From contig RBNJ01000175.1 in the NCBI GenBank assembly GCA_003990765.1, forward strand, positions 1 through 37,887: 37,887 bases of DNA. Reading direction: 5' to 3'. This document shows positions 1 through 32,945 of this stretch, piece by piece. The position numbers were made by a program, and so were the translations under genes. Below the pieces are notes generated by a model, which was not told the origin of the DNA, ran no database searches, and worked only from the letters and a program-made list of their open reading frames with translations. Source of the stretch: Jimgerdemannia flammicorona (lineage: Eukaryota). Numbering within the stretch: position 1 is the first letter of the stretch; the number at the start of each line of letters is the position of its first letter.

Positions 1-276
1 CCCCCTCCCTCCTCCCACCCCCTCACGATGAAAGACCACTTTGTCAGATGCCAGTACCACTTGCCCACCACTCTGTTCACAGATCTCTTCCACTAGTTCG
101 TGATGTTGCCTACCCTGGAGACCCCAACCAACCCACCACCCAGTCAGCAAATCACCCAACAACCCCTCCCACCTTAACAACTTCTCCTAGATACCCATCT
201 ATCATCCCTCCTCAAAAACAAAGAGCCAATGTCCCACCAGCCCTACCCACACTGCTAAAACCCACCCAACCATGAG

Positions 277-3145
277 CTAACCATTGCCAACACTCCCCAC
301 TAGATGAGATTTCAAATCCTCCCAGTGATCTTGCTCTCCCTCTGGCCTCCTCACCATACCCAGCCAGTCTCCTACTGCTATCCAAAAGTCCCCAAGAACT
401 TCACACTCTCTTAACCAATGTTCTGGAATTTGCACAAATCCCCCAACTTGCCCTACATTATAACACTCCTCACATTTGAATTGGCCACCATCTACCAGAT
501 GCCCAGTATGGAAATTGAGCATGATATTCCTCCTCAGCATCTGTCACCATATCACCCAGAACTTGAGAGAAAGCCACCTCCACACCTCAGCACTCTATGA
601 CCAGACTCCTGCCCAGTCCCACTCCTCACCAATCCCCACCACCTGCCAACTACTCAGCCAAAGATCCTGGTCAAGTCCCCACTAACACTCTATCCCATCA
701 CCAATATCAAACTCAGCAAGCAGAACACCCCCCAGAAGGAGCCTGTCCTACCACCACATAGCTGGACCCCACAGCACCTCCCCCTCATTCTCTCACCAGT
801 GCAGGCCTATCTGGTGTACTCCATCCACCACCTCCCACCAGAAACCCTTATACCATAACTGTTGGCTTCCAGTCAGATCCACCAGAGAGAGCAGATCTCC
901 AGAGGACCCACAAGGAGAGAACCTCATCTCCCACATCTTCTGCATCAGCAACACCAAACCTTCTCCCTGCAGTTCAACAGCTCTTTTCAACCACCAAGCT
1001 CACAGGCAGTACAGCTGCTTAGAGAAATCCACAAGGCCTAGTCCTCCCCTAACCACTGGAGTTGCAAGAGTATCTCAACTGATCTGGGACTGTATTCTAT
1101 CCATCTAAGGTTCTAATGGAAGGGCATAAAGGATGGGAGACAGTGGGTCTCCTTGAGGAACTCCTCTTCCCAAGGGAAATACCAAACCCTGGTGACCATT
1201 ACACATTAGTGCCACCCTACTACCCTCTAACAAATTCAATATAGAAGTCTGATACTGTAGTGGAACACCAATTCTGTCCAGTACCTTGTCTAGCCAAACC
1301 TGCCAAACACAGTCATAGGTCTTCTCCTGGTCTAAAAAGACCAGTCTACCATCTAGTCCACAGGCCCAGGCCCCTTCAATAATGCTGTGCACCCAGGCAG
1401 TCTCATCCCTGATAAGCCTGCCTCCTATAAAGCCCCTCTGCTCCTCCCCCAGCACCTGCTGGGCAACCTTCTGTAGCCTTGCAACAATCACCTTAGTCAT
1501 CATCTTCCTGCCTATATCCAGAAGAATGATTGGCCTCCAGTTCTTCCAGTCCTCTCTCCTCTCCTTATCTTTATACAATAAGACCACCAGCCCTAAGTCC
1601 TGCTCTCCAACTCACCCACCATTCAGAAGAACATGGTCACAGAGGGCAGCTATCTCTCCTAAAACTCCAGGGACCTTCACTATTTTCTTCCAGAAGTCCC
1701 AAGGTAACCCATCCTCACCTGGCACTGTCTCCAGCTTAGTTGCTGCAAGGACTCTCTGGATTTCCTCCTCTTGGACTGGTATGATCAAATCACCCAGTCC
1801 TTCTACTTGTGGGGGCCCCCACTCCACCAGTGAGTCTTCAATCACTACTTCATCAGCACCCCCTTCCTCCTCACTTCACAGACCCTGCCATCTTTTCTTC
1901 AGTACTCCCAAGATCTGTTGCATGCCATGCATCATTTCTCCCTCAGCATCCAAGACCCCATCCCATCAGTGTTGCACCCTCCTAGCCTGGAGGAGCCTTG
2001 ACAGGTATCTAGTGGGCCACTCTCCCTTCTCAAGCCCCTGCTACTGTAGTCTGGCAGCCATTCCTTTCATACAAATCTCCTCCTCAGCTCACAACATATG
2101 TTGCAGTTCTATTACCTCCAATTTTGCCTGCTCCAACCTCCAATCCTCCACCTCTTCAGAACAAAGCAACTCAGCCCACTCCATCTGCAATCTAATCAGC
2201 CTATTGGAAGCACACCTCACTCTCTTCTTTCTCTGCCTCCCAGCCTCTCTACCAGCTTCTCCACAATAAACCCTCACAATCTCCTTTAGCCTCATCTACT
2301 GGACACCCACAGATGCACCCTCACTTATCCAGGTAACAATCTTCACTTGGACATCTGCCACCTATGGGTCCCACAAACCCTGCTTGGCCAGCAGGGAGGA
2401 GTTAAGATACCAATATCTAGGTCATCTCCACTCCCCCCAAACTGTCCCTACCTCAATAGCCCCCAGTGATCAGACCAAGGGCACCACTCTACTACCAAAG
2501 TCCTCTAAACATCAACACCCCAACATTTGGCCATCAGAATCCAGTCAATTCTCATACTCAGTCCATTTACCCAGTGTGTATAGACCCTCCTCTTACCCCA
2601 CTGTGTTCTGCCCATATCCCCTAAGGAGCTAAGAGTCTCCACCTCCTCCCACTTATCCAATCTACTACTCCTTCCACCTGCACTCCTCTCTCCATTAGTT
2701 CGATCCAGCAGGGGATCCCACACCATATTAAAGTCACCCCCAGAACATCAACACCTTTCTCCCAGAAGACACCCTCCTCTAACAGATCCCTAATCCACTC
2801 AATCCACTCACCCCTAACTGCAGGGCAGTAGCAGGAGCCAACTCTCACTGATTCCCACCAAGGTTGATGCCATTCTCCTCAGACCAAATGGTCACCTCAG
2901 CTCTGAATTCCACTCAAGTCCCCTTGACCCTTCCTCACTAGAATTACCACTTTGCCATTCCAAGCAGTAGCTCCTCCCCATTCTCTAGTCTACTCCACTT
3001 GATCTATCTCATCCTTACACCATACATCCTGTAGTAAAAAGAGATCAGCCTCCAATTCCTTAAGCTAAGTAAAAATGTTCTTACATTGCCCAGCACCCCA
3101 CAATCCATTCACATTCAGAGAGAAAATGTTAGTTGTACTGTTCAT
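277..3145 (-). pseudogene. LINE A ORF2 (APE endonuclease + reverse transcriptase), disrupted, with RT-core deletion
   Basis: ORF fragments 2621-2848, 2505-2726, 1612-1845, 1105-1587, 793-990 and 277-540 are collinear with ORF2 of copies B and D. Many stops; the FADD-containing segment is missing near 1080. The 3' limit is approximate. Confidence 0.9.
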
Positions 3146-3159
3146 TAGGAATAATGTTA

Positions 3160-5206
3160 ATTTATCAGTCACAGCCTCTATAAATCCACATTCAACTCCT
3201 CCTGTGCCAAGTCTAAGTTATGTTCAGCAGCCAGCACCTTCTTCTCAGCTGCCCATGCCTCCAACCCTTCCAGAAGTTCAGCCATCACCCCATCCTCCTT
3301 TTCCTCAAAGTCCTCATGATACTTCAGACATGCCTCCTGCCAGAGCTGCAAACCATGATGCTCTGCCCAACAGTAGGCAGCTCACTCACCAGCAACAACC
3401 ACCAGCTCTGCCTCTCTCACCTTATCAATCTCATAACCCTCCTCCTCTATGAAAATTGTAAGAATCTCCATCTTCAGTGCCTCCACCACCCCATCTCCAT
3501 GCAGAATCCATATCCAATGCTCCTCAGACATCACACACAGGTCCACTTCTCCCAACTCCTCAGCAACAAGGTTATCCATTACCTTGCTCATCCACAGCAG
3601 ATTCCCCACCTCCTTCCCTCCAGGAGTCTCTGGCTACCCTGCATCCAGCATTGTGGTATCTGCTCCTATACTGGCAGCCTCATCCCACTTCTTCTCTAGG
3701 ATATCTGCCAGCTTGTCCTCGCCAACTGCCACCACTTGGCCCCCTTTCACTACATCAGAGACCCCAAAGTGAACTCACTGGGCCCTCTGCATCAGTACAT
3801 CCTCCGCTGCCCCTCTCTTTCCAACTGGGCCCCTCCTGATAAGTGGGAGGAGAGTGTCATCCACATCTTGCTCCCAGACTTTGAATATACCATCAGCATA
3901 GAGATTCTTGCCCAGCACCTTCCCAGCTCCTTTCTTGTTTGCCTCCACCTCTCCACCTCCTTTACTAGCCCAGATGCTGGCTTCGATGCCTCTAGACTCC
4001 TCAGCCCCATCCAACTTCTACTTTGCCCCTCCTTTCATACTTATCAAAAACTCCCTCTATCTTTGTGCCCCTGGGCCCACTCCCACTGCCTCTTGTCAGT
4101 GTGGATATTCTTTCCCTTCACAATCTCCAAGTATGTTGACTCTATATATTTCCTCCAGGCCTTTGCCCTCTGCTTGACAGCTCCACTAATCTCTTCCAGA
4201 GCCTCCAGTAGATCCTCCTCCTCCTCACTCCCTTTCACCCTTGACACTTGACAGCTGAAAGCTCCCCAAAGTATTACCACTGGCCAGTCACACATCTTCC
4301 CAGTAGCCTCCTTCTCTGCCAGTTGAATCCTGACATCAACATCCCTAGTTCTGATGGTGGTCCCCTCACAAATCTGGAAACCAATATCCACCACATTGCT
4401 ATACTCAGCCATTACCTCCTCAATCCTCCTCCTCATCTCAACTACTGTCACCATAGGCACTCCCTTCACCAGCAGCTGCACCATCCAGGGGTCCCACCTC
4501 AGACAATGCACCATAGGGACCACCACCTTCCCAACTACCACTCTAGCCTTCAGAGCCTCATCCAGCATGCCCGCCTCCTCAAAGCCCACCTCAACCCCCT
4601 CCAGCCCCTTCAGAAACTTCACTGAGGTGGCTTCAGCCACCTGCTTCAAGATAAGCCCCAGGACCATCCTTGCCATCACTGCCAAGCCCCAGAAGTACAA
4701 GGTGGCCACAAACTCTGAGATTAATTTCATGAGTAATAGTGCTACCACCAGCCCTATTACACCATTGACCTGATCCCCCTTCCTCTTTGGGTCCATCTGT
4801 CCAGCCCCACATCAACAGTCACATCTGGATTTTTTTCCAGATTCCCCATCAGACCACCATCAGCAGTCCTGCCACTACCCCCAGCAGCTACTCCACTTCC
4901 TCCACCTTCCACTGGCAAAGGTCCAGCACCCCCAGCATCCCCAACCTTCTGCTTCTCCTTCTCTCCTGCCTGTCCACTGCAAGCTCCCATCAGCCAACCT
5001 CCAGTCCTCAGCATGTCCGCAAAGCTCCTTCTCTGCTGCCCTCCAGCCCCCCCACCAGTGCCGCCTCTACCATCCAAGCTGTCCTGCCTACTTGAGCCAC
5101 CAAAGAACCCTATCTCAAGCCCATACTCTCTCCTGACATGTTGCCAGTCAAAGGCCCCAGGTCTGCTCAACCTAGTATGCATGTCAGTTTGCTTGCTGGT
5201 TAACAT
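3160..5206 (-). pseudogene. LINE A ORF1 (RRM-like nucleic-acid-binding protein), disrupted
   Basis: ORF 4044-4796 (GLAVMARMVLGL...GVEVGFEE...EYSNVVDIGF) is homologous to ORF1 fragments of B and D and lies directly upstream of the APE start. Ends are approximate. Confidence 0.8.
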
Positions 5207-5299
5207 TGCCTTAGTACCTTTCTCTTAATAAACGACTTGAAAGTGTGTTATAAAAGTGTGTATAATGTGAATTGCAACTGAGAAAGGCATGGTGGCTTC

Positions 5300-7000
5300 T
5301 TAAATCTTTTGCAACACTTCATTATAGATATCTCTAGGGGATGTACTTCTTTGTGAACTTTGGAACAATAGACTCTTATTCATCTTGCTTTATTTTTTTA
5401 TCTTTTGATAATAATTCATTCATTTTAGAGATAAAAGGTAAGAGAGACCTGGAAGGTATCTCAACTTATTTCTCTTTATATTCTTTGTCTTTTTTTTGAA
5501 TAATTCTTCTACTGATATTTCTGGATAGCCTTTCTACTGAGCTCTTCTTTTTCTTAACTGGATAAACTATTTATCTGATAATAATCTTAGTTGGATATAG
5601 ATCTAGATCATTGTAGTCTTTACTATTACTTTCTTCTTCAAAGTCTTCAATAGAGTGAGCTTCAGTATTCTTCTACTGTGTTACATTCTTTTGATTTGAT
5701 AGTTCTGAGTCCATTTGATCACTGTTTCTGTTATTATATTCTATAGCATAGTATCTAAACTGTCTACAGTCAAAGCATTGAACTTAGACTCTATCTTATA
5801 CTAGGTATTTTCTTTCTTCTTATGATTAGTAGTTTCTGTTATCTCTGAATAAGTAGTCTTGGTTAATTTATAATATATATCTTCTATTATCCTATAGATA
5901 GCTCTAATTTTTATATATAGTGAGTTTTTCAATTTGCCTAACCAATTTATTGAACTTGGAGATAAGTTCTTGGATTTAGTTTTTCTCTTTCTTCTACTTC
6001 TTGGCAGGCTTCTCTTTTCCTAATTTTCTATATTCTTGAAGTAGTTCTTATTGAGTTTTAACTAAGAGGTCTTTCTTGTCATCCTTCTTAACATAATCAC
6101 TCCAGATAGTTCCTTGTCAGATATTGAAAAATTCTTGAACTATATCTACTTGTTCTTTAGTCTTTCTATTGTCTTAGATACAAACATACTGGATAATATT
6201 TAGAGAAATTTTATTCATTAAGGTCATTAGACCAATGATGTTTTGATTGGTGATATGAAACTTAGCTATATATATTCTTTTCTAGATTCTAGTATAGAAT
6301 ACTCTTAAGATTCATCTTCATCCTAATGATGGATTTTTGGGTCTTATAGTAGGTCTCATTTTCTATATATTTTTTGATAAGTCAGTAAGTTATAGCCCTA
6401 TATTTATCTTTATAGAATGGTACTATATAAATGACTACACTAAGATTTAAATATATATCATTTACTGCTTAGTTAAAAATTCCCTTAACTAATGCTTTAA
6501 GTTGGACTTTGAAGATGAGAACTTTTCTTTAAACTGAGAGATTTTTTAGAGATATGATTACTTCAATTTTATTAGAAAATTCTCTTGGGTCTTCTTTTAG
6601 ATATCTTATAAAAGTTGGCATTAAGATGACCATTTCTTCATTACTGTCTTCTAATTCTGATTCTGGTTCTAATTCTGGTTCTGATTTATTTTCTAAGTTA
6701 TTACTAGAGCTTGAGATAATTGGATATCCTGAATATAATATTATTGATCTTGAGTTAGATATAGTAGATCTGGATATCCTTAAAGAGACTATTACTGATT
6801 CTTCTGTATCTATGGTTACTGGTCATTTAATAGAGAAGACTAGTAGAGCTTCTGAGAGAAACTGAGATTGTGCAATAAAGTTTTCTAATTTTTGTATAAG
6901 CTTGTTGAGGTTTCTGACAGAGTCTCTCATATTATTTAATTAATCTGATTAGATCAGGTCTCCTAGTAGTAAGTCTGTTGATTTTAGTTAAGGATTCTGA
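5300..7000 (-). pseudogene. Heavily mutated gag of an LTR retrotransposon (Ty3/gypsy-like)
   Basis: 5777-5736 reads C-F-D-C-R-Q-F-R-Y-Y-A-I-E-Y. Reverting single transitions (AGA>GGA, TAC>CAC, TAT>TGT) gives a CX2CX4HX4C zinc knuckle. The surrounding DNA is AT-rich with almost no CpG. Boundaries are approximate and no pol is seen in the window. Confidence 0.6.
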
Positions 7001-7431
7001 GATATACTAACTTCTGGTTGAGATCCTTCTAGTATCAGGTAATTAGTAAGTCTTTAGGTGATTACTTCTCTTTCTGTTCAAATACTGATGATGACTAATT
7101 CTTCTATAGTGATAGAGATTGAGATTATATCAAATATATTAATTTGGCTATTGGATTTCTGTAAGCTGAAAAGTCATATAGATTTAAATAAAAAAATTCC
7201 AGTTGAGCTCTCAAATGTAATATACTAGCTTAATAGAGATAAATTAAAAGATTAATACTACTATATTTTTTGGCTTAAGTCTTTATTTAATTTGTCAAAA
7301 AGTACAAAATAGTCAATGGTTTCTGAGTATAATATAAATGATTTTGATAAGTTTCCTAATTAGGTAGTATGGCATAATATGGAATAAAGCAGATTTCCTA
7401 AATATTGTAGATGGCTTAGATGATATAATAA

Positions 7432-7476
7432 CTCAGATAATACAGATAACTTAGATAACATAGATAACTTAGATAA
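7432..7476. repeat. 9-bp tandem repeat, 5 copies (nnnAGATAA)
   Basis: agataa at 7435, 7444, 7453, 7462 and 7471. Confidence 0.8.
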
Positions 7477-8359
7477 TAAGAATTCTTTCTAAATTAGTAG
7501 TCTTTTTAATAAAGTGGACTTCTTTTGAAAATAACTTAGATAGTATAGATTCTTTCTAATCAGCAGACTTCACTTAAAAATTGCAACTTTCCTTAAGCAG
7601 CAGATTACTCAGCAATATACTTCAGACTTAGTCTAACAGATATATATATCAAAATATAACAGACTTTTCAAAGTTATATTAAAGACTACTTTGTTTGCAT
7701 AAATAGATTCATTATAAAGTATGTATCTTATACTAGATAGGATTTGGATATTAGACTTCTTCTTTATATTGAAAACTGGACTAAAGTGAAAAATAACTCA
7801 AAACTTCTTAGCAATAGCTTATTAGCAGATTTCTCCTCCTAAGCATATTAGATAATTAGCTTTTACTTTTTTTTTTAATCTGAGATTTAGATACTCAAAT
7901 CTCTGAGATATTTTATAGTTATAGTTACTATCTGATATTGATATAGCTAAATTAGATTGCTATTTCTATTAGAAATATTAATTTCAAATTCTGATATAGT
8001 ATATCAGCTAGAAATATTAATATCAAATTTTGGTATATATAGTATAATACTTATATCCTTATTTAGCTATCTAGGATATTTATATAAGTTAGCATAATAG
8101 GATAGTTCTGGTTATCTAATATATCTGATATAGTATATGGCTAAATTATAGTAACTAATTTAGATAGTAACTTAGTATATTTCTCTTCTAACTTATCATA
8201 CTATAAATAATACTCAATTAAAAATTTATAATAGGTTTTTGATAAAAGAATCTAAGTTTACTTAAAAGAGTATTTAGAGTTAGCCAATTTGATAATAAAG
8301 TAAAGTCTAAAGTAACTGATATTTATACAAGTTAGAAGCTATCTAATATTAGACTAAAT

Positions 8360-8556
8360 ATATATCCCTTATTCTGTAAAATAATGCAGCCAAATTTGGC
8401 TGCAAAAAAATTAAAAAAAGTTAGAAAAGTTGAAAAAAAAATTGGATTTTTTGTTTATAATTTAATTTTTTGATTTTCTTTTGATTTTTATAATATTTTT
8501 ATAGTAGTTTTTTTTTTGCAGTCAAATTTGGCTATAATACAGAGTAAGGGATATAT
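8360..8556. mobile_element. MITE-like non-autonomous DNA transposon (~195 bp)
   Basis: Left end atatatcccttattctgta..gcagccaaatttggctgcaaaaaaa (8360-8410) matches the reverse complement of 8511-8556 (atatatcccttactctgtattatagccaaatttgactgcaaaaaaa). TA-rich flanks on both sides; non-coding A/T interior. Confidence 0.8.
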
Positions 8557-9133
8557 TTAATATATATAATAGTTATACTATAGAACTATTAATCTAAAGA
8601 TCTCATTCATATAATCAAAATTAACTAAGTAATCATAATTATAAAAATTGAGCTCTCTAGAGTTCTATTATATTTTAGCAGTCATATTACACTGATTATA
8701 TATAACAGCTATATGATGTAACTTAGATTAATTATTAATAATAGAAAAAAAAAATTACTATCAACTTTTATTCAATATTAATATTATTATATTAATATTA
8801 TAACTAGAAATATATACCTTATCTTCTGTTATGACAGTATTATATCTGTAATAACTTTATAGATCCAAGGCCAATATGTGCCTTTTGAGAATGATAATAA
8901 TATTATCAACAAATACTCAGATTGGGAGACATAAGAGAGATTTTATTAAGTAAAGTGAAATGTATAGTATTTAGTAATATAAATAACTAAAGAGTAGATA
9001 GTAATAATATAAGTATAATATTGTATATTCAGATAATAATTAGCAGTAGCTAATATGGTTAATATTTATAAATTGTTCAAATTTATTGTGAAATACTGGA
9101 ATTTGAGGGATAAAGGAGCAATCTTTATTGATA

Positions 9134-9224
9134 TGCGCGAAGCGCGTATTTACGCGTTGATGACGTTTCCACTGATGACGTCCTCACACGTGAGCTGCGC
9201 CACCTTCACGTGAGCTACATACCG
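9134..9224. promoter_or_regulatory. Isolated CpG-dense motif cluster (ACGCGT, 2x TGATGACGT, 2x CACGTGAGCT)
   Basis: 12 CpGs in ~90 bp within several kb essentially lacking CpG. MCB-like ACGCGT at 9152-9157, CRE-like motifs at 9158-9166 and 9173-9181, E-box motifs at 9187-9196 and 9207-9216. Regulatory function is inferred. Confidence 0.5.
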
Positions 9225-9999
9225 AGTTGATTAGCTAGAAATCTCAACAAAATTTACAATAATACTCTAAGAATTTGATGAGATTATTAAAAATAGGATC
9301 TCTAAGAAACTCATTATTCTTCACCTAAGGCTGTATTTGGTATTTGGTATGAAAAAGAAGAGATTTTGTAGCTCTCACTAAGAATTTATAGTTCTTTCTA
9401 CAAAGTTGGAGTATTTTACAGATCTTGTTTCAAAATTTCTGATTCTATGAGTAAAAATGCTAGATTGTAGACCTCTTTAGAATATGAAGAACATAAACAC
9501 TTAGAATGATAGAGCAAGTGCTTAAAATTGGAGGACCAATTTATTATTCTAATATTTGTAGATAGATTAGTATCTGTAGTAGTGATATTCATTGCCTTTA
9601 TAAAACAATAGACTCTATATATTAAACTATATATATATATATATGTATTCTAATATGAATCCACATTACAGAAAAAAACATTGCCTACACAAACTCCACC
9701 TTTATCACTATTCCATTTCCATATTATCTTTTTATTACTTTCCTCTAGACCCTCCCTCTCATCTCTCACATTTTTACCCCTTCTCTATCTCAAACCTATC
9801 TGCCATCATCTGATCTCAGTCTTAACTAGTACTATATATTACTTCTACATCTCTATCTGATAGAATAAGTATAACTGTTATATATTTTAAGAGTCAGAGA
9901 ACTAGAACAGATTATTTGAGAGGTCCTGAATATGAAAACAAAGAGAGTAACTATAAGTATATCAGTTATTTAATTCTTACCCTCTACTATAAAGATAAA

Positions 10000-10029
10000 A
10001 AAATAAAATAAAATAAAATAAAATAAAAT
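10000..10029. repeat. (AAAAT)6 microsatellite
   Basis: Read directly from the sequence. Confidence 0.9.
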
Positions 10030-10479
10030 AAAAAATCCCCCTTCACCCTCTTTATCATTTCTACAATCTGGATCACATTTTTAGTGATCAATTCAATGAA
10101 ACTTAAATAGTCTAGTTGTGATACTTTTTAAACTTCTTGATAATTTTGTCAGAGATACTTAATTTCTGACTCATTAGACTAAATGATATAGCTCTTCTAT
10201 ATAAGACACTAGCAAGTATATCAATGATAAAAATGATTATCTAAATTGTGTTGAAGATTTCTCCTTCATTTCTTATTAGTGAAAATACTGATAAGTTATA
10301 TATTGTACTCACTCTTGATATTACCTCTTCTATATCAAGATAAAACTACTTAAAGAGTAGAGAAGACTATCTGTAAATTGTGTCTTTGAGATATCCTAAA
10401 GAATAATAAATAAAGAGATTATATATATTTGTTATAATAGTTTACAGTCTGAAACACATATATAGCCACTCAGATACAG

Positions 10480-11585
10480 ACTTTACCAAGTATCTATACT
10501 GTTTGAGAGTATGGTGGTTAAAGCAAACTAGTGAGCTAAGGGGTTACAGTTGAGTTTCTCTTATACAGAGGGTGTAAGAGATATAGTTCTTCTCAAGAGA
10601 AGTATCCAGTAACTTGTTCTCTCTGGTAGCTCTTGAGAGAAGTTATAGGATATATTATAGAAACTTCTGGTAGAGAGTGGTTAATGGGGCCCATTGTATT
10701 GATATCTGCTAATAAAATAATAAGTAAGAGAAGAACTGGGGACTCCAGATATAGAGGTGAGACTGTCTTCTGTTAAGAAGTACTCTAGTAAATGATTTCT
10801 GTCTTGAGGATAATATGGAGTATCTGTGAGAACATAGGAGAGATCTATAGCTGGAGGCCTGACAGGTGGTAGGAATTAGTAAGAAATAGGACTGAGCTGA
10901 TATCTGATCATAGAGTAAGATATTGGTACAGAGGCTTCCACCTAAGTTCTGGATGATATGGTAGAGATTTCTATAATAAAGTATAATGTTGAACTTTTAG
11001 TTAAGATATCTGAGTGATGGGAGTATCTTTGATTACAAGAAGTGCTTTAATATTAAGCAGAAGATTGAGGTAGTACAGACTCTAGAACATTGACTGAGAG
11101 AGTGTGAGATCTTAGTAGACTTTTGAAGGATGATTAAAGAATAGCTGAGGATATAACCCTCTAAGCAGAAGGTGGAGAGGCAGTGGGATATTCTTCAGAT
11201 ATAGCTAGTGGAGGAAGTGAGTAATAAGTGATTGACAGTTGGGTAGGCTCTAGCTATTTAGATTGAGCTTACTAGACATTAGCTATATATTTTTGAAGAT
11301 GACCAGAAGTTGGTGCTTGGGGTGAGAGTTATGAGGTGAGAGTGATTGGTGTTGGAGCTTCTGAATGGATAGTGGCAGGGGTGGGGAACCTGAGGGAGTC
11401 TGCATTATAGACTGGTGGAGAAGATTTGTGCAAAGAGTAAGAAAAGGACCAATATATCTGGGGGGGTAATTTCCTTTCAAAGAAATGGAGGAAGAAGGGG
11501 GGAGTAGACTAATCTGTATTAATATAACATTAGTTTAGATTGGTTTGGTAATAAATATGAAAGTCCAAGCAATTATAAAAAAAAA
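10480..11585 (+). mobile_element. LINE F: 5'-truncated (~1.1 kb) plus-strand copy of the same LINE group
   Basis: Begins in ORF2 at DFTK.LYCLR.WW, homologous to 28291 region of D. AATAAA at 11550-11555 and A9 tail at 11577-11585. Degenerate 17-bp TSD tagccactcagatacag (10463-10479) / taaccgcccagacacgg (11586-11602), with all 5 differences being transitions. Confidence 0.88.
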
Positions 11586-11642
11586 TAACCGCCCAGACAC
11601 GGCCACCCACGTATCCCACAAAAACAGAGATGAAATCCTCAC

Positions 11643-11850
11643 CTTCCCTTCAAACCTTCGGAGGATGCGCTCAAGCTCTCGACCAGTGCTGCGGCATGCA
11701 GGCTTCATAGGGCACATTGGGCGTGATATGTTTGGGGTACATTTTTGCGACGTCGACTAGAAGGGTCTCATAAGCTTTGAGCATGCAGAGGTCGAGGTAG
11801 ACTTCGAGGTTCATCGGCGAATTTAGTCGAAGCGCGAAAGAGTTTTCGCC
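11643..11850 (-). pseudogene. Possible exon of an unidentified host gene (frameshifted), whose next intron carries LINE F
   Basis: Bounded by catag|GGC and AAG|gtgagg. Reads GENSFALRLNSPMNLEVYLDLCMLKAYETLLVDVAKMYPK... then shifts frame to ELERILRRFEGK. No family recognised. Confidence 0.3.
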
Positions 11851-13359
11851 CTATGGCGTTGCGAGTCGGATCTCGATCTGCGTGTGTCTGGGCCCGGGGG
11901 ATGAGTATCGAATCCACTGTACTCTATTCAACATCACCACACGAGCCAGAACCTCACATTCAAACCACCAACTCTCACACGACTCACAAACCTGCGTGAG
12001 TCTCAGGCACGCGACAAGACCTCGACCATGAATCTCGATGAGAACGGACAATGAAAGTAACCGTCCTTGCAGACAACCTTGACTATCAAAACGTAAACCT
12101 TTTCGCTCACCTTTTCACTCACAATCGCGATGTCAACCGTCTGTAAGACGTTTGTTTTTATTGTTTATAAATTAAAATACATAAATACACATAAGCATGT
12201 AACAAACGCCCCCGAATGGAGATGACCTAGAATAGCCCAGTTTTTGCCCTTGATCAAGGGGCTCATCGTTGGCTTAAAAGCAACCAAGACCGGGCGGCAC
12301 TGCGCTTTCGAGTTGGCATTTCGCGCCGGTAGTAAGAATTGTGAGAGGGCAGATTCGAAAAAAATAAAAAATAAAAAAGTAAGACAAGGCGGGCAAAAGA
12401 AACTAAGAGCAATACTTAACCTAAATAAGCAGATTCTTTCCCCTCCCGTCTAAACTACAAAGGCTGTGAGGTACCCACTCCCAGAACGGAGAGGAGCACC
12501 TTATTACCGTCCTGACCAAAGGACGCAACCTACCAAGGTCGATCAAACGAAAGGTGACATTCACGTGTTGGCGTCGCCCAAGCGGGCCACATAGTAGGTT
12601 GCCCTTTATACTAGTATGACAAGGCACGAATTAAATCCATTGCAAACAATGAAGGACGTAGCATTTACGCCCTCTGCCCTGAAACAATAGTCACATACAA
12701 AGCCTATTGCTTAGATGGAGATGAGCAGGGCGTCCAGGGTCTATTGGCGAGTGTTCTTCTCCGGTTAGTCGGTTTTACTTAATTGACCCGAGCAGGCTGT
12801 TTACTAAGCATTAGTATAGTTTCCCCTTTAATATCCTCATTATTTCATTTAATGTTTATTGGAACAAAATATCAACATAATGGCATAATAACAGATATAT
12901 ATATATATTTTACAAAGTTTACATTTTTTTTTCGATTTTCTTGCATGTTTGGATAAATATTTTATTTTAATATATTCTCAGTGTATTTCAATACTATTTA
13001 TAAAATAGAGGAAACTAGATGAGTACGCACATTTTGGGCACAGCGATGGTCTTCATTGCAGGCATGGCAGCGATAGCGACGCCGTGTGTGAGGGCTCGGC
13101 ACACATGTCCTTGGTAGCCCCGATGGAAAAGAATCAAATGTAACGGGCCGCGAGATTTTGGTTGCGACCAGAAACCCTGACGTTGTCAAAAACAGATGGT
13201 CAACTGGTTCACTTTGCCGATTTGCGACAACGCCGTTGGCACGGGATAAAACAATCGCCGCGGATTCAACAATCCTTTGTGTAGTTCACTTTTAACCACT
13301 ATAGATTAGATTTGATGGGCTCGATGCAATAACAGTTCGTATAGGTAAAGAAATACAAT

Positions 13360-14197
13360 TTATTCGATTATAAATTCCGTTCCATTTTTCATTTACGACC
13401 CGTCCTCCGATTTACGGCCCTTAATAACGCCGAGTTTCTTTAATGTATTTTATGCGCAGCAGACCCGAGGCCCGCGGCGGTATTGTGGTAGAAATTGCGA
13501 GATGGAGAATTTGGGCCCGTAGGGATTGTACGCCTCCACCAGGATATTATCCTCTTTTAAAATAAATAATTAATACGATATATCCACAGTCGCTTGTGTT
13601 AGGCTTTTCAGTCATTCCAACAGCACCACCACCACATTTCTTGTGCTGTCCATCGGTCCTTCGTGAGTCGTGAATCGAAATGCCGTTGGTAACGATCTCT
13701 ACACTGTCGCGGCAAACGTTTGAAGCCGGTCACTTCGATAAATTCAGAAGCACCAGTCATTGGAATGTGTCGAAATCGTTAAGTCTTCTTCATCGGTAAA
13801 AGGACCTGTCGGGGTGGGCACCAAAGAATGTGTACGACGTTTCTGAAGTCTTTCCACAGAAAGAAAGAATATAATGAAAGACTCCATACAAATCTTTCTT
13901 TTTCGGGTGGGTCACACTATCGTGCATGCACAACTGAAAAGGGGGGCTCGATTTCGAAAGTAGTTTTCGGCGAGGAACTTCCAGCGGAAACCTCATTGGG
14001 CTACCTTCGGCGATTTTCGTGGATTCTGGCGCACGGGGGGATTGGCCGATAGCTAGCCAGTTGCTACCGTATTTTGCGCAGGCTTTTCTGAGGATTTGGT
14101 CCTCTTCATTGGACCAAGATTTGGGGAACCAAGGATTTCGGGGCTGACTGAGCGGCGACGGTGAGGAAGCGGAACTGTGTAAGGATTGCAACAACGT
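13360..14197 (-). pseudogene. Myb-repeat paralogue 1 (pseudogene)
   Basis: KSWSNEEDQILRKACAKYGSNWLAI repeat; collinear with copy 3 including both intron positions and the terminal ATC GAA stop. The start position reads cgccACG instead of cgccATG; internal deletions and frameshifts. Confidence 0.85.
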
Positions 14198-14600
14198 GGC
14201 GAGGTGTGTCGTGTATGGCTTAGACCAGTCGGATGACCTCAGACGAAACGTTGGCGACCTCGGTGGATTAACAATATTGGATGAAACGGCACTGACTATT
14301 GATACTGAAACTGGCGTAAATCTGAATCCGAATCTGAACTGAACTAAGTATAGGGAATATTGTTCCGAGCGGTTTCGGCCACTTTGCCGTAGCTGAAACT
14401 ATGTTCTTAACTATATCCATCGAACGTCGGGCGCGGAATGTCGGTTCGCTACCTTCGACAACCCGCTTTATTATTCAAATGTCGATTTTTCCATTAGTCA
14501 CGCTCCACGCCAATATTGAACTTTATTGTGGTGTAGTTCGCTTTGGAAGGATTAAATACAATAACATTTCACATAGGCAAAGAAATACAAATGATGTGAT

Positions 14601-15508
14601 TTATTCGATATTAATTCTCGCGATTTTTTCGCTTATGTCTCGTCATCCGATTTACGGCCCTTAATAGGGCCGATTTTCTTCAAAATCTTTATGCGCTGCT
14701 GGACCCTGAGGCGCGCCGCGGTAGTCAGGCAGCAATTTCGAGATCGCCGGGAATTTGGGCCCGTAGGGATTGAGGCATCCACCAGGAATTTATCCTCTTA
14801 TAATGCAAATGTTGTGATATATCTGAAGTCGCTTGTGTCCAATCATTTCAACTGCTCACTACATACCTTGTGCCGTCCATGGATTCTTTACCACCTTTGG
14901 ATCCAAATCCCGTAGGTAACGAGCTTTACACGTTTGGCACCAGTCACTTTGCTAACTTCGGAAGTGATGGTCCCCCAGTCACTTGGATGATGCTTAAATG
15001 TGAATGGGTACGACATTTCTTATGGTATTCCACAGAAAAAATAATATATAGAACTGACTCTTTACATTACCTTATTTGCGACTGGGTCAGATCATAGTAC
15101 TTCACATTGTTCCTTGTCCCAACTCTCTGAGCCAACTCAATTTGTCATTTGGCTGGCTCTTTTCCTCAGGCAACCAAGTATCCGATTTCCCGGCACAGAA
15201 TCCCCACAGCGACCCAGCTCGATATGGAAAGTAGCCAACGGCGTGGAACCTCCAGTGGAAACCGTATTGGACCACCTTCTTCCGCTGGAGGCGTGTTTCA
15301 TCCTCCGTCCAAGCGAGAGAGCCGTCATGAGATTTCGGATCATGCATGAGTCTGACAAATCGCGAATAGGTGTGTGAATTGGGCAATACCTTGCCAGGTC
15401 CTTCCATTTTCGAGGGCTTCTCTGAGAATGCTGTCCTCTACGATGACCAACCGTATACTTGGGAGGTGACCGAGCAGAGATGGTGAGGAGTCAAGTGAAA
15501 CGGTACAT
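14601..15508 (-). pseudogene. Myb-repeat paralogue 2 (pseudogene)
   Basis: cgccATG at 15508 reads MYRFT*LLTISARSPPKYTV; contains LAWTEDETRLQRKKVVQYGFHW. Collinear with copy 3 but with an early stop, deletions and frameshifts. Confidence 0.85.
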
Positions 15509-16400
15509 GGCGTGTGTGGCTTAGACCAGTCGGGCGTGTGTACCTCAAAATTGACGCGAACTGCGCTACGCAAATGAGACCTCTTGAAATATATCTCGGA
15601 CTTACGCGGAGATCCCCATATATTTGTAGTATTTTAAGCAGTAAAATTATGTATTCTTTGGCTTGAATAAAAGGTCGGAGTCTAGAAGTCTAAAATCTGG
15701 AAGCCGCGTACATTCAGAACGGGTGGGGATCGGACATCCCAGGAATTCCCGTACGACAGGTCGTTTTTTCAGGGCCCCACGGCCGTCCCTAGACGCATTT
15801 CATACGTCCACATCGATCCAAAAATTTCCCTCTGTAAACCGCGACTCGATCATTTTCTGTGGAGCTGTCATAATCGCATCTCGTGGAACAATGACGTCAT
15901 ACAAACCGCTCGCCGCTATACGCATTCTACGCATACCCTCGAAGGACACGTGTGGGCTCAGGCGCGGGCTTACGCGGCGATCCTTACGCATTTCATAGTA
16001 TTAGTTTTGGAAACTTGCATAAATAGGGTGTAATAGAATCCAGCAGGCAAGGAATATACATGGTCCATCGCCACATCCGCACTAGCGATGAAGTTAGAAA
16101 ATGCGCAAGGCCCACACAGGCACAACGTGGCTCCCAACATAGCCAACCCGTTTCACTTGACGACTAATACCAGCCCGCCTAGCCTGTCGAACTGCCGGGT
16201 TTTCCAGGAGTCACGATCCGCGTCAATTGCAGCGACGCCGTTGGAAAGGGACCTTGAAATTGACCTTTTAATATTACTTATTTGGCATTTGTGTAGTTCA
16301 TTTCCACTCACTATGGATTGGAAAGTAACTAGAGTAACTTCGTTTGGAAAATTTCAATACAAAAAGCAATTTATATGTATAAAGAAATACAATTGATGGT

Positions 16401-17522
16401 TCATTCGATTTTATATCCTTCGCCATTTCCCTCTTGCGACTCCTCTTCCAATTTACAGTCTTTAATAATGCCGTGCTTCTTTAATGCCCGTAAGCGCCCA
16501 CGGATTTGAAATTGACCGCGGTAGCTGGGTAGCAATTGCGAGATGGCGGAGATTTTAGTGCCATAGCGATTATAGGCGTCCCCCAGGATTTTATCCTCTT
16601 ATAATGGAGTAAGTAAATAATCGATGTGATAGATATTAAGTCGTTTGTGTCAAAAATTTAAATCATTCCAACAGTGCACACAAACCTTGTGCTGTCCATG
16701 GGTCCTTCACCAACATTGGATCCAAATTCCATTTGTAATGAGTTCTACACTGTCTCGGCGAACGTATTATACCAGTCACTTTGCTAACTTCAGACGCAAT
16801 GAGCCCCCAGTCGTTTGGATGTTGCTTGAATGCATCGAGAATCGCCTTGTTTTCTTCAGGGGTAAAGTGACCTGTCGGGGTGAATAACATTAACAATGAA
16901 TGTGTACAATATTTTCTGAAGGAATTCCACAAAAATTAATTAGACTCCATACAATACCTTTCTTTGTCAACTTGGCCAGACAATAGTACTTATGCCAACA
17001 CTGCATGTAGTTCCTTGTCCCAACTCTCTGGGCGATGGCTGGCCAACTCAATATGCCATTTTGGGTGGCGTCTAATAGCCTCTGTTCCTCCTCAGGCTGC
17101 CAGGCGCCCAAATTTTGGCGAAGATTCCCCACAGCGGGCCAACGACTCGACAGCTGACTGGGGCCTCGATTTGGAAAGTAGAGTTCCGCGAGGAGTTTCC
17201 AGCGGAAACCGTATAGGGCCACCTTCTCACGTAGGAGGTGGGTTTCGTCCTCTGTCCAAGCGAGAGAGCGGTCACGAATAGGTTTCGGATCACGCGCTAC
17301 CGGTGGCGCGAGCCTCGTGAAGCGCAAAGCGCAGGCGTTGGGCGTGCGGTCAGGGAGGGATTGGGCAATAACCTGCCAGCGACAGCCGTTGGCGCGGGCT
17401 TCTCTGAGGATGTTGTCCTCTTCGTTGGACCAAGCTTTGCGGACTGTATACTTGGGAGGTGATCGAGCAGAGATGGTGAGGAAACGGAATTGGGTCAAGG
17501 ATTGCTTTATGAAACGGAACAT
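16401..17522 (-). CDS. Intact five-repeat Myb/SANT protein, 315 aa, 3 exons (17522-16958, 16871-16686, 16597-16401), possible mitochondrial presequence
   Basis: Exon lengths 565+186+197=948 nt stay in frame across two phase-1 GT-AG introns (86 and 88 nt) to TGA at 16403-16401. Repeats begin KAWSNEED, LAWTEDET, GAWQPEEE, GHFTPEEN and DPWTAQED. The second acceptor is AAG, conserved in paralogues 1 and 2. Confidence 0.88.
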
Positions 17523-18386
17523 GGCGAGGACGAGCGCGTGAAGCGAGTGTGGCTTAGACCCGTCGGACGTATTTTCGATAATCGAACTTTGTGGAACCGT
17601 GACGTTGAAGCCACGCAAGTTGACACGTATGTGTTGGCTTGGGCGGCAACCGCATGGAATCTATTTCGAAAAATTAGTTAAATAGGGATGGACGCCAGTG
17701 GTATTATGTGAGGACTTGAAATATCATTCAGGAACGGAACGAATTGTCCAAAGAATCCGTGAACTAAGGTTACTTTTTAGGCTCAATTGGTTGCGCTACG
17801 ACGATTTACTAAATGAATTCGCAACAACATTTTCAGGTTACAGACCGCCCTTTTATTAGCAATATATTTCTGGTGGAAAGTCGCTTTCGGGGAGACTTCA
17901 AGGAAAATTCACTAAAGTTCAAGCATTTGTAGACAATAATTACGGCCGTCCGCGACCGTTCAGCCCCCAGAACGCCTGTACGCTATTTTCTTTAAGGATC
18001 TCGGGATATATATGATCCACTGCCACATCCGCGCTAACGACGAAAAGTTGAAATGCTCAAGACCCACCTATGCGACGAGGCCTTGGAAGTGCTAACAACG
18101 TGAACTCCTAACTTAGTCAGCGTTTCGCCCGGGCTCGCTTAATTTGTTCAAGTGCCGATTTTTCTAAAAGCCACAATCCACGCAAATTGCCACAACGCCT
18201 TAGGGAAGGGATAATATAACGATAACGACCGCGGACTCAAACCATACTGAAATCGAACTTTCAAAAAGCTGTTTTTCATTATTATTATTATTTTATGCGA
18301 ATCACTATGGATTGGAAAGTGACTTCATTTGGAAGGGTTCAATGCAAAAGAAATTCATATAAGTGAAGAAGTACAATTGTAGTCAT

Positions 18387-18995
18387 TCATTCGATTTTAA
18401 AATCCTCGCCATTGCTCTCTTGCGACTCGTCTTCCGATTTACGATCGTTAATAACGCCGCGACTCGTTAATGCCTTTAAGCGCTCATGGACCCGAGACCA
18501 ACCGCGGTAGTTGGGCAGCAGTTGCGAGATCAAAGAGATTTTAGAGCCGTAGCAATTGTAGGCATCCAACAGGATTTTATGCAATAATTAAATAAATATA
18601 TATATTAAAATCACTTGTGTCAGGAGTTTCATTCATTCCAACAGCAAACCACATACCTTCCGCTGTCCATGGGTCCTTCACCACCTTTGGATCCAAATTC
18701 CGTTGGTAATGAGCTTTACACTGTGACGGCAAACGATTCAAACCGGTCACCTTGATAACTTCAGAGGCGAATGGCCCCCCAGTCGTTTGGATGTTGCTTG
18801 ACTGCATTCAGAATAACCTTTTTCTTCATTGGTGAAGCGACCTGTTCGGTGGATAATAGCGAATGAGTGTGACATTTCTCAAGGCATTCTACAGAAATAA
18901 ACCATATTGAACAGATCCCATATGATACCTTTCCTTTTTGACTAGGTCATACTCTTGTACTTTTGCTAACACTGTATTAGGTTCCTTGTGCCAAC

Positions 18996-19000
<5 letters not shown>
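18387..19000 (-). pseudogene. Myb-repeat paralogue 4, 3' part (split by LINE B)
   Basis: Homologous to copy 3 exons 2-3 (RLPSQCKAHYQRNLDPKVVKDPWTAE; ...GEDFKIE*). Frameshift near 18820, lost second acceptor, and ends abruptly at the poly(T) at 19000. Confidence 0.88.
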
Positions 19001-19027
<27 letters not shown>

Positions 19028-19246
19028 CAGGATCAAGACCCCATGGAATTTTATTAGAAGAGAACCTAGACTATATAGGCCAAAACCCTCCCCCACCCCT
19101 ATCCCAAACACTACACCCCCATTAAATATAGGCTTGCTATTGTTCAGAGTTCTACTGTACCAGGTACAGTAGAGCTTACTTTAGCCTGCACCTTATTCTA
19201 CACACTATGCTCTCCCTACCAGTTGGAGAAAAGTGACCAATAATAA

Positions 19247-22200
19247 TCATTCCCAATGTGCCACCTTGTCCCCAACCCCAACCTGCCATCCCTCCTCAAA
19301 TACATGAACCCAATGCCCAGCCAACCCAACCCACATGGCCAGAGCCCAGCCAAGGGTCAGCCATTCATCCCCAACCCCACCCACCAGTCTCCAGTAAAGC
19401 TCTTCCCATCTCTCTCCTTCCCCTCCCTCCAAGGCACACAGCCCTAACTAGACCATGATACATCTCCAAAACTCCTCCAAAACCTCACACTCGCTAAGCC
19501 AATGTTCAGGTGTTTGTACCACTCCTCCCTCCTGACCAATGTTGAAACATTTCTCACACTTGAATACTCCACCATCCATCAAGTATCCAGACTGATAGTT
19601 CAACATCACATTCTGCCATAAGACTCACCACCACACCACCCAGAACTTGGGGGACAGCCACTGCCTCACCTGTTTGCTCCAAAGCCAGAGCCCATTCCAA
19701 TTCCACTCCTCACCAATTTCAACCCTCTACCAGGCTTCTGGCCACAGGTCTCTACCCAAGTCCTGCAGACACTCCATACTCTCACTAAGCTGAAAATCCT
19801 CCACCGGAATACCACCCAGTAGAAGCCTGTCCCACTGCCACATCCGTGGTCCCCAATCCTCCTTAGCCTCATCACCTCACTACTGAAGTTCAATTTTCTT
19901 AGCTCCATCCACCACCCCCCACCAGAAGCCCATAAACCACATCCTCCTGCTCTCCTCCATGGTTGCCATTGCAAGCAGGTCACCAGAGTCACTATGAGGG
20001 GAATACTGAACCTCCTACACCCTCTGCATGAGTGGCACTCACTCCCAACCCCTTAGCTCACTTGTCCTCCTCAACCACCAAGCTCTCAAGCAGTATAGCC
20101 ACTTAGTAAAGTCAACTAAACCCAGCCCACCTCTTTCCATGGGTAGTGTGAGCACCTCCCAGCCTACCTGGCTTCACCACCCTCCCCAGATCCATGACCT
20201 CGCCATCCTCAACAGCCCCCTGACCACCCAAGTTGGAAAATCCAAATGATACCCCACATACCACAGCTTTGGCATCCAATATACATTCAGCACTATCACC
20301 CTTCCAGCTAGGGACATATACTGACCTTCCCATCACAGCAGAACATTTCCCCACTCCAGAAGCTGTTGGTTCCACTATACATGGGGAAGAAGAGATCCAA
20401 ATACTGAGAAGTAGATCTCCAAATAATGCACTGGTTTGCCAGCTGGCACCACCATCCCAATTACATTGCCACCAACAATTCCAGCACTCAGCACCAGAGT
20501 CTTGCATTTGTGCCAGTTTAGTTTAGCACCAGAGCCCCTCTCAAACCATTTCATGGACCTTCATAACTTCCCCACATCCATCAAGGAGCCCAGCCTGACC
20601 ACTATATCATCAGCAAAGGCCCCCACCTTCCAATTAACCCCTAAAATATCCAAACCCCCAATCTGATGCTGAATCCTGTCCAGTAGGGGCTCCAAGGAGA
20701 GGGCATACAATATGGGTGACAAGGGGTCCCCTTGTAGCACCCCCCACCCCAGAGGAAAGGCCACTCCCCTGTAGCTATTGATGACCAACACTGCCTGACT
20801 GTCCTCCAAGAGGCCAATCAATGAACCTCGGAACCCCAGGGGGATACCAATCCATTTCAGTACTCCCTCTAGCCAGATCCTCCGCACTCTATCATAAGCC
20901 TTCTCTTGATCCAGAAATACCAACTGGTCATCCACTCCTATAGTCTGGGCACCTTCAATCACTCTATATACCCAAGCTGTTCCATCACAAATCAACCAGC
21001 CACCAATAAACCCATGCTGCTCCACACCAAGCACCTGCTGAGCGATTCCTTGCAGCCTTGTCACCAAGATCTTTGTCACCAGTTTATGGTCTATGTCAAG
21101 TAGCATGATCAGCCATCAGTTCTTTCAATCTTCCTGCCTCCCCTTATTCTTATAGAGCAAGGAGACTAGCCCTAGGCACTGGCCCCCAATCTAAGTACCA
21201 GACTGAAGAACCTTATCATACATAGCAGTCATTTCCTCTAGCACCTTGCCCACCTTAGCCATCTTCTTTCAAAAATCCCAGGGAAGTCCATCCTCCCCCA
21301 GAGCCATCCCCTTACTCGTCGAGGCCACAACCTTGCAAATTTTCTTGCCACTCACTGGGTCCCCCAAAGCCTCTAGACCCATCACAGAGTTTGGGTGTCA
21401 ATCCCCTAGCTGCCTTTCAATGTCCAAAGCCTCTGCACCCCCTTCCTCCTCACTCCATAGATTCTCCCAATGGGTACTCAGCAAGCCCAGAATCACCAGA
21501 GTCCCCACCACCAGCTCACCATTCATATCCAGAACTCCCTCCCACCATTGTTTCGTTTGTCATACTAATAACAACTGCATCAAAAACCTAGTAGGCCTCT
21601 CCCCCTCCTCAAGCCCCTGCCACTGCAGTTGGGCCACTATCCTCTGTAGCCTCACCTCCTTCTCTCCTCATAACACTCCTTTAAGCTCCTCCACCTCCTT
21701 TCGGATTCTCACAATACACCAATCAGTTATCTCCCCGACTTCTAACATGCCTGCCCATCTCCCCATGGGTGCCTCCAAACACTGCAAGGTCCACAACACC
21801 TGCTGCCACCACTGGATACACCTTCCTTTCCCTGCTTCCCTCCAATATTCCTGAGCATTCACCTTCAGTCTCCTCCAGCAGTCCCCAATCTCCAGGCCCC
21901 ATTCCCACCACCTTCTAATATTCCCAACAATCTCCATTTCCCAACCCTTCCACAAAGCCCTATCCTCCAACAAGGAAGAATTTAGCCACCAATGTTCAGG
22001 CCCATCCTCCCTTCCCCCAAACCTCCCCCCTCCAAGCAACCCCCAGTGATCAGACTACGGATATGAAACCACCTCCAGTGCTATCCAGACATCTGCTCCC
22101 CAACACTCTGCTGTCAAAACCCAGTCAATCCTGGAGCCCAGCCCTGCTGCTCAGTGGGTGTACACCCACTGATCACCCCAAAACTGCCTTTCTGAGTCCA

Positions 22201-22726: not shown

Positions 22727-22757
22727 ATTGAGAGAATGTTTCAATAGAGACCCCAGT

Positions 22758-24668: not shown

Positions 24669-24754
24669 CCATGTCGATAGTCATTAGACACCAAAAATGT
24701 AGTAAAAAGTGTTGTCAGAGTCTTGTATCACCTGAATGTTACTGGTGAAAGATG

Positions 24755-27144: not shown

Positions 27145-27179
<35 letters not shown>

Positions 27180-27229
27180 GTCTCTTGGACTGCCCTTTAT
27201 TACCAAAGTCTATAATGTATACAATACAA

Positions 27230-30903: not shown

Positions 30904-30934
30904 ATTGAAGAAATGTTGCAATAGAGACCCCAAT

Positions 30935-32848: not shown

Positions 32849-32945
32849 CCATGTTGTTAGTTGTCAGACACCAAAAACATTGTACAAAGTGTTGTCTGAG
32901 TCTTGTGTCACCCGAATGTTACTGGTGAAAGATGAAGATATCCTG

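What the first reader, a model, noticed from the sequence alone, without database searches (positions are those of the whole stretch)
9134..9224. 90-bp CpG/TF-motif island surviving inside CpG-free DNA
Seen: 12 CpGs packed into CGCG/ACGCGT, two TGATGACGT and two CACGTGAGCT motifs, with essentially no CpG for kilobases either side. Established: ACGCGT is the MCB (MBF) site, TGACGT the ATF/CREB site and CACGTG the bHLH (Cbf1/Pho4-type) site. Inference: either bound proteins shielded this patch from methylation and mutation (a mutational footprint of an active promoter, insulator or boundary), or it is a very recent small insertion.
Basis: partly seen in the sequence, partly recalled or inferred. 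Interest (0 to 1): 0.7.

Follow-up and report, generated by a model that had tools for sequence, protein, structure and literature searches.

The report
Solo LTR of young Copia retrotransposon
The CpG-rich patch is the leftover end-piece of a young jumping gene that landed in old, CpG-eroded repeat DNA, which is ordinary; but this copy lost none of its CpGs, and a second jumping-gene family in the same genome shows a small promoter patch with the same motifs that was shielded from CpG decay.

Summary
Observation confirmed. The patch lies inside a 166-bp solo LTR (9084-9249, minus strand, TG..TA ends, 5-bp duplication AAATT) of a young Ty1/Copia family with 121 exact-ended LTR copies. It inserted into an already decayed repeat. 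Its CpGs are family sequence: whole elements have CpG o/e about 1, and LTR CpGs decay as fast as internal ones (27% vs 25%, p=0.14). It is therefore not a host promoter or insulator, and the motifs give no family-wide protection.

Residue: this is the only solo among 102 copies and keeps 12 of 12 CpGs (chance 0.02-0.07). The only other isolated island in 193 kb is the U3 end of a Ty3/Gypsy LTR with TGACGTCA and CACGTG. In two full elements the 5' U3 kept CpGs that its twin 3' LTR lost (20 vs 0; 14 vs 0), while the rest of the LTRs decayed evenly. Local protection thus seems real in this genome and may apply here (about 40%); no methylation data were available.

Earlier scan notes describe the same C-to-T spectrum on other DNA of this genome; none covers this element.

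The parts
9084..9249 (-). Solo LTR, 166 bp, of a young Ty1/Copia family; ends TGTTG..CAATA (non-canonical TG..TA)
   Evidence: Shared unit of dispersed copies; 121 exact-ended copies; the same boundaries in a contig of an independent metagenome run; no PBS or PPT beside it
9079..9083 (.). Target-site duplication, left copy (AAATT)
   Evidence: a chance 5-mer match is about 0.003 at local composition
9250..9254 (.). Target-site duplication, right copy (AAATT)
   Evidence: three LTR-free paralogs of the host repeat resume alignment here
9136..9223 (-). CpG-rich part of the LTR, inferred U3 enhancer/promoter, 12 of 12 CpG intact
   Evidence: the U3 role is inferred from position in the LTR
9187..9216 (.). 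Two CACGTGAGCT motifs 20 bp apart (E/G-box-like; label recalled)
9158..9181 (.). Two TGATGACGT motifs (CRE-like half site; label recalled)
9136..9157 (.). Three CGCG cores including one ACGCGT (MCB-like; label recalled)
9124..9129 (-). AATAAA, possible polyadenylation signal of the LTR
   Evidence: Seen in sequence; function inferred
8778..9066 (.). Old, CpG-free host repeat, left part
   Evidence: 80-81% identical to three paralogs
9255..9558 (.). Old, CpG-free host repeat, right part, collinear with the left part in the same three paralogs

Best explanation
A 5.3-kb Ty1/Copia retrotransposon of a recently expanded family integrated at an AAATT site inside an old repeat that had already lost all its CpG. 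Recombination between its two LTRs removed the body and left one 166-bp LTR between the duplicated target sites. The CpGs and motifs are the element's own U3 promoter sequence. They stand out because the family has lost only about a quarter of its CpGs so far, while the surrounding DNA has lost all of them. Shown: boundaries, duplication, family, classification, decay rates. Inferred: LTR-LTR recombination, the U3 role of the motifs, and cytosine methylation followed by deamination as the cause of decay.
For: 40 of 40 scored matches at 96-100% identity (154 candidates). 121 copies with exact ends and length, reversed control 0. Of 102 distinct copies examined, 57 carry a PBS, 44 a PPT and 1 (this one) neither. 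Nine two-LTR elements have 5-bp duplications, 8 perfect. Pfam order gag, zf-CCHC, Pol_BBD, GAG-pre-integrase, rve, RVT_2. Whole elements have CpG o/e 1.01-1.09 (3 of 3). LTR loss 212/780 vs internal 1585/6418, p=0.14, in the 65 of 95 copies with at least 30 comparable sites. 61 of 97 family flanks have zero CpG, so every such copy makes a similar sharp edge. The flanks are collinear in three LTR-free paralogs.
Against: Youth alone does not explain well why this copy has no change at all. Mean difference to other copies is 4.5, 12/12 occurs in 3 of 102 copies, and the expected chance is 0.02-0.07. Solos are rare here (1 of 102) and no read or contig spanning the junctions was available, so a collapsed assembly is not excluded. 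About 40 bp of the host repeat is missing just left of the insertion, which is unexplained.
Confidence: 0.9

Rival explanations
1. Add-on to the best explanation: this solo LTR has also escaped methylation. Factors bound to its CpG-containing CRE, E-box and CGCG motifs keep it unmethylated, helped by the loss of the CpG-rich element body and by CpG-free flanks that cannot carry CpG methylation. Methylation would block binding, so each copy is either protected or decays.
For: 12/12 kept, chance 0.02-0.07. In an older Ty3/Gypsy family the outer ~190 bp of the LTR, with TGACGTCA and CACGTG, keeps at least 20 CpG in 7 of 30 unselected copies: 7 of 20 with U3 facing the flank, 0 of 10 3' LTRs, Fisher p=0.06. 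Twin LTRs at C750 and C558: CpG kept in 5' and lost in 3' 20 vs 0 and 14 vs 0; the rest of the LTR is symmetric (1 vs 2, 1 vs 1); 4 of 4 unselected pairs are symmetric in U3. Two CpGs in the flank just outside the C750 patch are kept, where paralogs keep 2 of 21 and 0 of 23. The one solo recognised in that sample (L238, duplication ACAGT) keeps 31 CpG. A neighbouring 190-bp MITE lacks the two CpGs seen in one of six other copies, so shortness alone may not protect (weak).
Against: In the window's own family there is no protection on average, 5' and 3' LTRs do not differ (9.1 vs 8.6 of 12, p=0.11) and overdispersion is marginal (p=0.08). n=1 solo. The two twin pairs were picked because their 5' U3 was CpG-rich. 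No methylation, chromatin or RNA data. Motif presence and CpG retention are circular, because each motif contains a CpG.
Confidence: 0.4
2. Assembly artefact: a full-length element collapsed to one LTR, with the commonest family bases called.
For: Fragmented assembly (35,354 contigs). The copy carries the commonest base at each of the 39 variable columns among 40 copies, as a pile-up would. Solos are otherwise absent.
Against: 99 of the 100 listed copies were assembled with their PBS or PPT junction and with private differences. Many contigs extend 130-330 bp beyond an LTR (positions), so fragments appear able to span 166 bp (inference). A merge of two twins that each lost 2-3 CpG would not restore all 12 (inference).
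Confidence: 0.1
3. Host promoter, insulator or boundary element preserved in old repeat DNA.
For: Motif density; CpG-rich host-like DNA starts 2.3 kb away at 11590.
Against: The unit has 121 dispersed copies, a target-site duplication and LTR-free paralogous sites. No Rfam or tRNA match.
Confidence: 0.03
4. For the second family: the CpG-rich 5' U3 ends were refreshed by gene conversion from younger copies rather than protected.
For: Both protected twins differ from their partner by 3 transversions and 2 gaps in U3, against 0-3 and 0-2 in four unselected pairs.
Against: The 13 CpG-rich U3 ends differ from each other (78 pairs, minimum 7 differences). Each protected U3 is nearest, or tied nearest, to its own twin. 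Flank CpGs outside the LTR are kept too.
Confidence: 0.2

Closest known systems
Ty1/Copia elements primed from the anticodon arm of initiator tRNA-Met: yeast Ty5 (PMC5371799, passages read) and Drosophila copia (recalled)
   Same: Copia domain order; 5-bp duplications; PBS GGTTATGAGCCC directly after the 5' LTR, which from recall matches the tRNA-iMet anticodon arm; insertions found mostly in silent-looking DNA, as recalled for Ty5.
   Different: Shorter LTR (166 bp) with TG..TA ends in 88 of 100 copies. The host tRNA was not found, so priming is not shown. No tree was built, so the clade is not assigned.
Non-canonical (non-TGCA) Copia LTR elements of plants, TGTA type (bioRxiv 10.1101/137141, passages read; supplements not seen)
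   Same: TGTA is named among the seven non-canonical motifs; these elements are mostly Copia, have short LTRs (mean 272 bp) and low solo-to-complete ratios.
   Different: The plant elements favour genic, non-repetitive sites. This fungal-type family sits in CpG-depleted DNA (84 of 97 flanks vs 109 of 191 background bins).
Fungal Copia clades GalEa and FunCo1 (PMC5445492, passages read)
   Same: Fungal Copia elements.
   Different: Fungal GalEa has no PBS and FunCo1 has a tRNA-Lys-type PBS; neither matches this PBS.
CG methylation of transposons in Rhizophagus irregularis (PMC8647823, passages read)
   Same: Methylation concentrated on transposons, bimodal, and lower in short, old or expressed copies; this fits escape of a short solo.
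   Different: That paper measures methylation; here only the mutational scar is seen. The passages read report no sub-LTR protected patch.
Mammalian CpG islands kept unmethylated by bound transcription factors (PMC6266221, passages read)
   Same: Local lack of CpG depletion at unmethylated, factor-bound promoters; this is what the second family works like.
   Different: Patches here are 90-190 bp, below the usual 400-500 bp definition, lie inside transposon LTRs and are copy-specific.

Membership tests
Solo LTR | One LTR identical in extent to the LTRs of full-length elements | tested here: met
   166 bp, same ends as 121 copies
Solo LTR | Flanked by a target-site duplication of the family's length | tested here: met
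   AAATT on both sides; 9 two-LTR elements have 5-bp duplications
Solo LTR | No PBS, PPT or internal sequence adjoining | tested here: met
   flanks belong to another repeat
Solo LTR | Junctions confirmed by reads | tested here: inconclusive
   Only one metagenome run listed; its contig is another insertion
Ty1/Copia | Integrase upstream of reverse transcriptase; RVT_2 and copia-type gag | tested here: met
   on real copies L031 and L034
Ty1/Copia | RNase H after RT | tested here: inconclusive
   A 271-aa frame follows RT and looks like Copia RNase H by recall, but no Pfam hit
Ty1/Copia | TG..CA termini | tested here: not met
   TG..TA in 88 and TG..CA in 12 of 100 copies (the pattern allowed only these two). 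A described non-canonical type, so superfamily membership stands
Ty5/copia-type half-tRNA priming | PBS complementary to the anticodon arm of the host tRNA-iMet | tested here: inconclusive
   PBS seen; match to tRNA recalled; one pattern search for the host gene found nothing
Repeat-induced point mutation (Neurospora CpA type; rust TpCpG type) | CpA or TpCpG preference, strand-clustered changes (recalled) | tested here: not met
   CpG dominates; ApCpG 19%, TpCpG lowest at 7%; CpA 1-4%; TG and CA changes interleave about as chance in most copies
Factor-protected CpG island | Slower CpG loss than neighbouring sequence of the same age | tested here: inconclusive
   Window family: not met on average; this copy p=0.02-0.07; second family: met in 2 selected twin pairs
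Factor-protected CpG island | Unmethylated, open and factor-bound in vivo | not testable with these tools
   No methylation, chromatin or RNA run available

The most novel reading that the evidence does not exclude
In this genome, LTR promoters that carry CpG-containing CRE and E-box motifs can lock, copy by copy, into an unmethylated state. They leave sharply bounded 100-200-bp CpG islands inside otherwise erased repeat DNA, mostly at flank-facing 5' LTR ends and solo LTRs, and the window's solo LTR is one of them. The assembly alone would then map which transposon promoters stayed active in heterochromatin.
Probability: 0.4. Interest if true: 0.65.

Novelty: new member of a known kind. Interest (0 to 1): 0.4.

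Why it matters
As a solo Copia LTR it matters little, beyond warning that CpG islands in CpG-free fungal repeat DNA are often young insertions. The side result matters more. Twin LTRs are identical at birth, so a 20-to-0 asymmetry confined to a motif-bearing 190-bp patch is a sequence-only record of local escape from methylation-linked decay. If it holds genome-wide, it would extend factor-protected CpG islands to transposon promoters of a fungus and give a way to list long-active LTR promoters without epigenomic data. I found no paper describing this in four searches, which cover open-access text only.

Tried and rejected
Rfam (E up to 5, 8000-10500) and ARAGORN: no match, so a SINE, tRNA or structured RNA was rejected. 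Folding z=-2.44 comes from palindromic motifs and was not used. MITE or Helitron end: rejected, since copies carry PBS or PPT. The first solo pattern had a gap one base short and found nothing; the corrected one worked. Host tRNA-iMet pattern: no match; this is no evidence of absence. Sequencing runs: no RNA holder listed; one soil-metagenome run with a small share held a different insertion. Internal-region retention for the second family could not be scored (only 3 sites passed), and the multiple alignment was not used. The sample is biased to intact LTRs (17% loss), so the end-anchored pattern sample was used instead, and L002 and L004 were dropped. Literature searches with no relevant hit. 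Look-up of earlier findings by sequence: none. The organism's lineage was not tested.

Full report
Observation. The 12 CpGs and all named motifs are at the stated places. No CpG occurs from 5234 to 9135 or from 9224 to 11589; the flanks would hold about 62 and 58 by base composition. The contrast is real.

What it is. A search of the window's own genome (G000, 231 Mb, 35,354 contigs) with 9100-9260 gave 154 candidates; all 40 scored matched at 96-100%. The shared unit is 9084-9249, 166 bp, reading TGTTG..CAATA on the minus strand, with AAATT on both sides. An end-anchored pattern finds 121 copies and its reversed control none. I examined 102 distinct copies (the 100 listed plus 2): 57 are followed by a primer-binding site, 44 are preceded by a polypurine tract, and only the window's copy has neither. 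A filter over all 121 for copies lacking both passed 3, of which two are 5' LTRs with a mutated primer site; the filter misses solos with G at either tested position. Nine elements with two LTRs were held: eight of 5.2-5.3 kb and one of 2.3 kb, all with 5-bp duplications, eight perfect. Their frames give copia gag, zinc knuckle, Pol_BBD, GAG-pre-integrase, rve and RVT_2 in that order. A contig from an independent soil-metagenome run matches exactly 9084-9249, belongs to another insertion and differs by three G-to-A changes, all at CpG.

The site. Left and right flanks are collinear in three paralogs of an old repeat that lack the LTR. The paralogs have G where both duplicated copies begin with A, so the host repeat had probably decayed before the insertion (inference from one base). 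About 40 bp of the host repeat is missing just left of the LTR, which I cannot explain.

Why CpGs survive. Whole elements are CpG-rich (o/e 1.01-1.09 in 3 of 3), so the LTR is no special island within the family. Using real copies as references, CpG loss is 1585 of 6418 internal sites (24.7%) and 212 of 780 LTR sites (27.2%), p=0.14, in the 65 of 95 copies with at least 30 comparable sites. Each of the 12 sites is lost in 15-51 of 102 copies. Loss per cytosine is ApCpG 19%, CpCpG 11%, GpCpG 10% and TpCpG 7%; outside CpG it is 1-4% before A, 1-2% before C and under 1% before T. Changes on the two strands interleave about as chance in most copies. This fits gradual deamination of methylated cytosine rather than classic RIP (inference), and agrees with earlier scan notes on other elements of this genome. 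Those notes label the organism an Endogonales fungus; I did not test that. The family sits mostly in erased DNA: 84 of 97 flanks have CpG o/e below 0.1, against 109 of 191 background 1-kb bins (p=3e-7; 24 of 40 with one bin per stretch, p=0.001). My background stretches were picked at fixed contig numbers, and targeting cannot be told from selection against genic insertions.

What youth does not explain. The window's LTR keeps 12 of 12 CpG. That occurs in 3 of 102 copies; the expected chance is 0.023 from per-site rates, 0.067 from internal rates and 0.017 from twin differences, the last biased to older elements. 5' and 3' LTRs do not differ (p=0.11) and overdispersion is marginal (p=0.08). 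So the one solo is also among the least changed copies. Chance, very recent insertion, assembly collapse and escape from methylation all remain possible.

In 193 kb of background only one other isolated island was found, L156:3629-3758 (G000:C750), with 22 CpG, TGACGTCA, CACGTG and CGCG. It is the outer, U3 end of the roughly 800-bp LTR of an older Ty3/Gypsy family with a dUTPase (822 hits to a CpG-free anchor). In the first 30 anchor hits, 7 keep at least 20 CpG there: 7 of 20 whose U3 faces the flank and 0 of 10 3' LTRs (p=0.06). I fetched four such elements; two held the twin LTR. In the U3 end, CpGs kept in the 5' LTR and lost in the 3' LTR number 20 against 0 (C750) and 14 against 0 (C558). 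In the remaining 600 bp the counts are 1 against 2 and 1 against 1, with five sites lost in both. Four unselected pairs are symmetric in U3. Two CpGs in the host repeat just outside the C750 LTR are also kept, where paralogs keep 2 of 21 and 0 of 23. The CpG-rich U3 ends differ from one another and are nearest or tied nearest to their own twins, which argues against refreshment from one young template, though both protected twins carry 3 transversions and 2 gaps. The one solo recognised in that sample keeps 31 CpG. The two pairs were chosen for a CpG-rich 5' end, so they show that the state exists, not how often.

Mechanism. Shown: insertion, solo structure in the assembly, family-wide CpG decay, and a bounded asymmetric patch in the second family. 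Inferred: LTR-LTR recombination; methylation as the cause of decay; and protection by bZIP or bHLH factors whose sites contain CpG, giving an either-or state per copy. I put the solo-LTR reading at 0.9 and added escape of this copy at about 0.4.

Known systems. The element is a Ty1/Copia. Its primer site resembles the anticodon-arm priming of Ty5 (PMC5371799, passages; the sequence match is recalled, and the host tRNA was not found). TG..TA ends, a short LTR and few solos match non-canonical Copia elements of plants (10.1101/137141, passages; supplements not seen and may list the motif types in more detail), but the target preference is opposite. The primer site differs from fungal GalEa and FunCo1 (PMC5445492, passages). 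Lower methylation of short transposons is reported in Rhizophagus (PMC8647823, passages), and factor-based protection of CpG islands in mammals (PMC6266221, passages). Four searches found no report of protected LTR patches in fungi; the library holds open-access text only.

Verdict. The flagged feature is an ordinary solo LTR, a new member of a known kind. Interest is raised to 0.4 by its untouched state and by the protected U3 patches in the second family, which deserve a genome-wide test.

Noticed in passing
L156:3629-3758 (G000:C750:13629-13758); L253, L255, L236, L238, L222: Older Ty3/Gypsy family (822 anchor hits): the outer ~190 bp of some 5' and solo LTRs, with TGACGTCA and CACGTG, keeps nearly all CpG while the twin LTR and the rest of the element lost them (20 vs 0; 14 vs 0). 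Candidate protection footprint.
   Followed up: partly
L253:6184-6759 (minus): That Gypsy family encodes a dUTPase between gag and protease (Pfam PF00692, E 2e-29). It is notable in a genome dominated by C-to-T change; any link is speculation.
   Followed up: no
flanks of 97 copies of the window's Copia family: Insertions lie mostly in CpG-erased, AT-rich DNA (84 of 97 vs 109 of 191 background bins); Ty5-like targeting or selection.
   Followed up: partly
LTR 3' ends of the window's family: 88 of 100 copies end CAATA and 12 CAACA; TA-ended elements have clean duplications, so the integrase appears to accept a TA end.
   Followed up: partly
L086 (G000:C4902:3449-5739): Internally deleted 2.3-kb copy of the family with both LTRs and a perfect duplication.
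   Followed up: no
window 8363-8553: About 190-bp MITE-like element with terminal inverted repeats in TA-rich context; dozens of copies at 75-98%.
   Followed up: partly
window 11590-19000: CpG-normal block with four diverged 400-700-bp repeats and Myb-domain frames (16893-17660 and 13793-14398, minus; similar frames near 15100-15490): a tandem Myb gene cluster or transposon-borne Myb genes.
   Followed up: no
window 1-5230, 19000-25000, 27145-33000, 33200-37000: Head-to-tail LINE-like elements on the minus strand (RVT_1 hit; poly-T runs at 19000, 27145, 37858) with graded CpG loss (o/e about 0-0.15, 0-0.14, 0.15-0.31 and 0), plus a decayed plus-strand copy near 10400-11585: a natural age series.
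   Followed up: no
window 9064-9083: About 40 bp of the host repeat is missing or replaced immediately left of the insertion relative to three paralogs.
   Followed up: no
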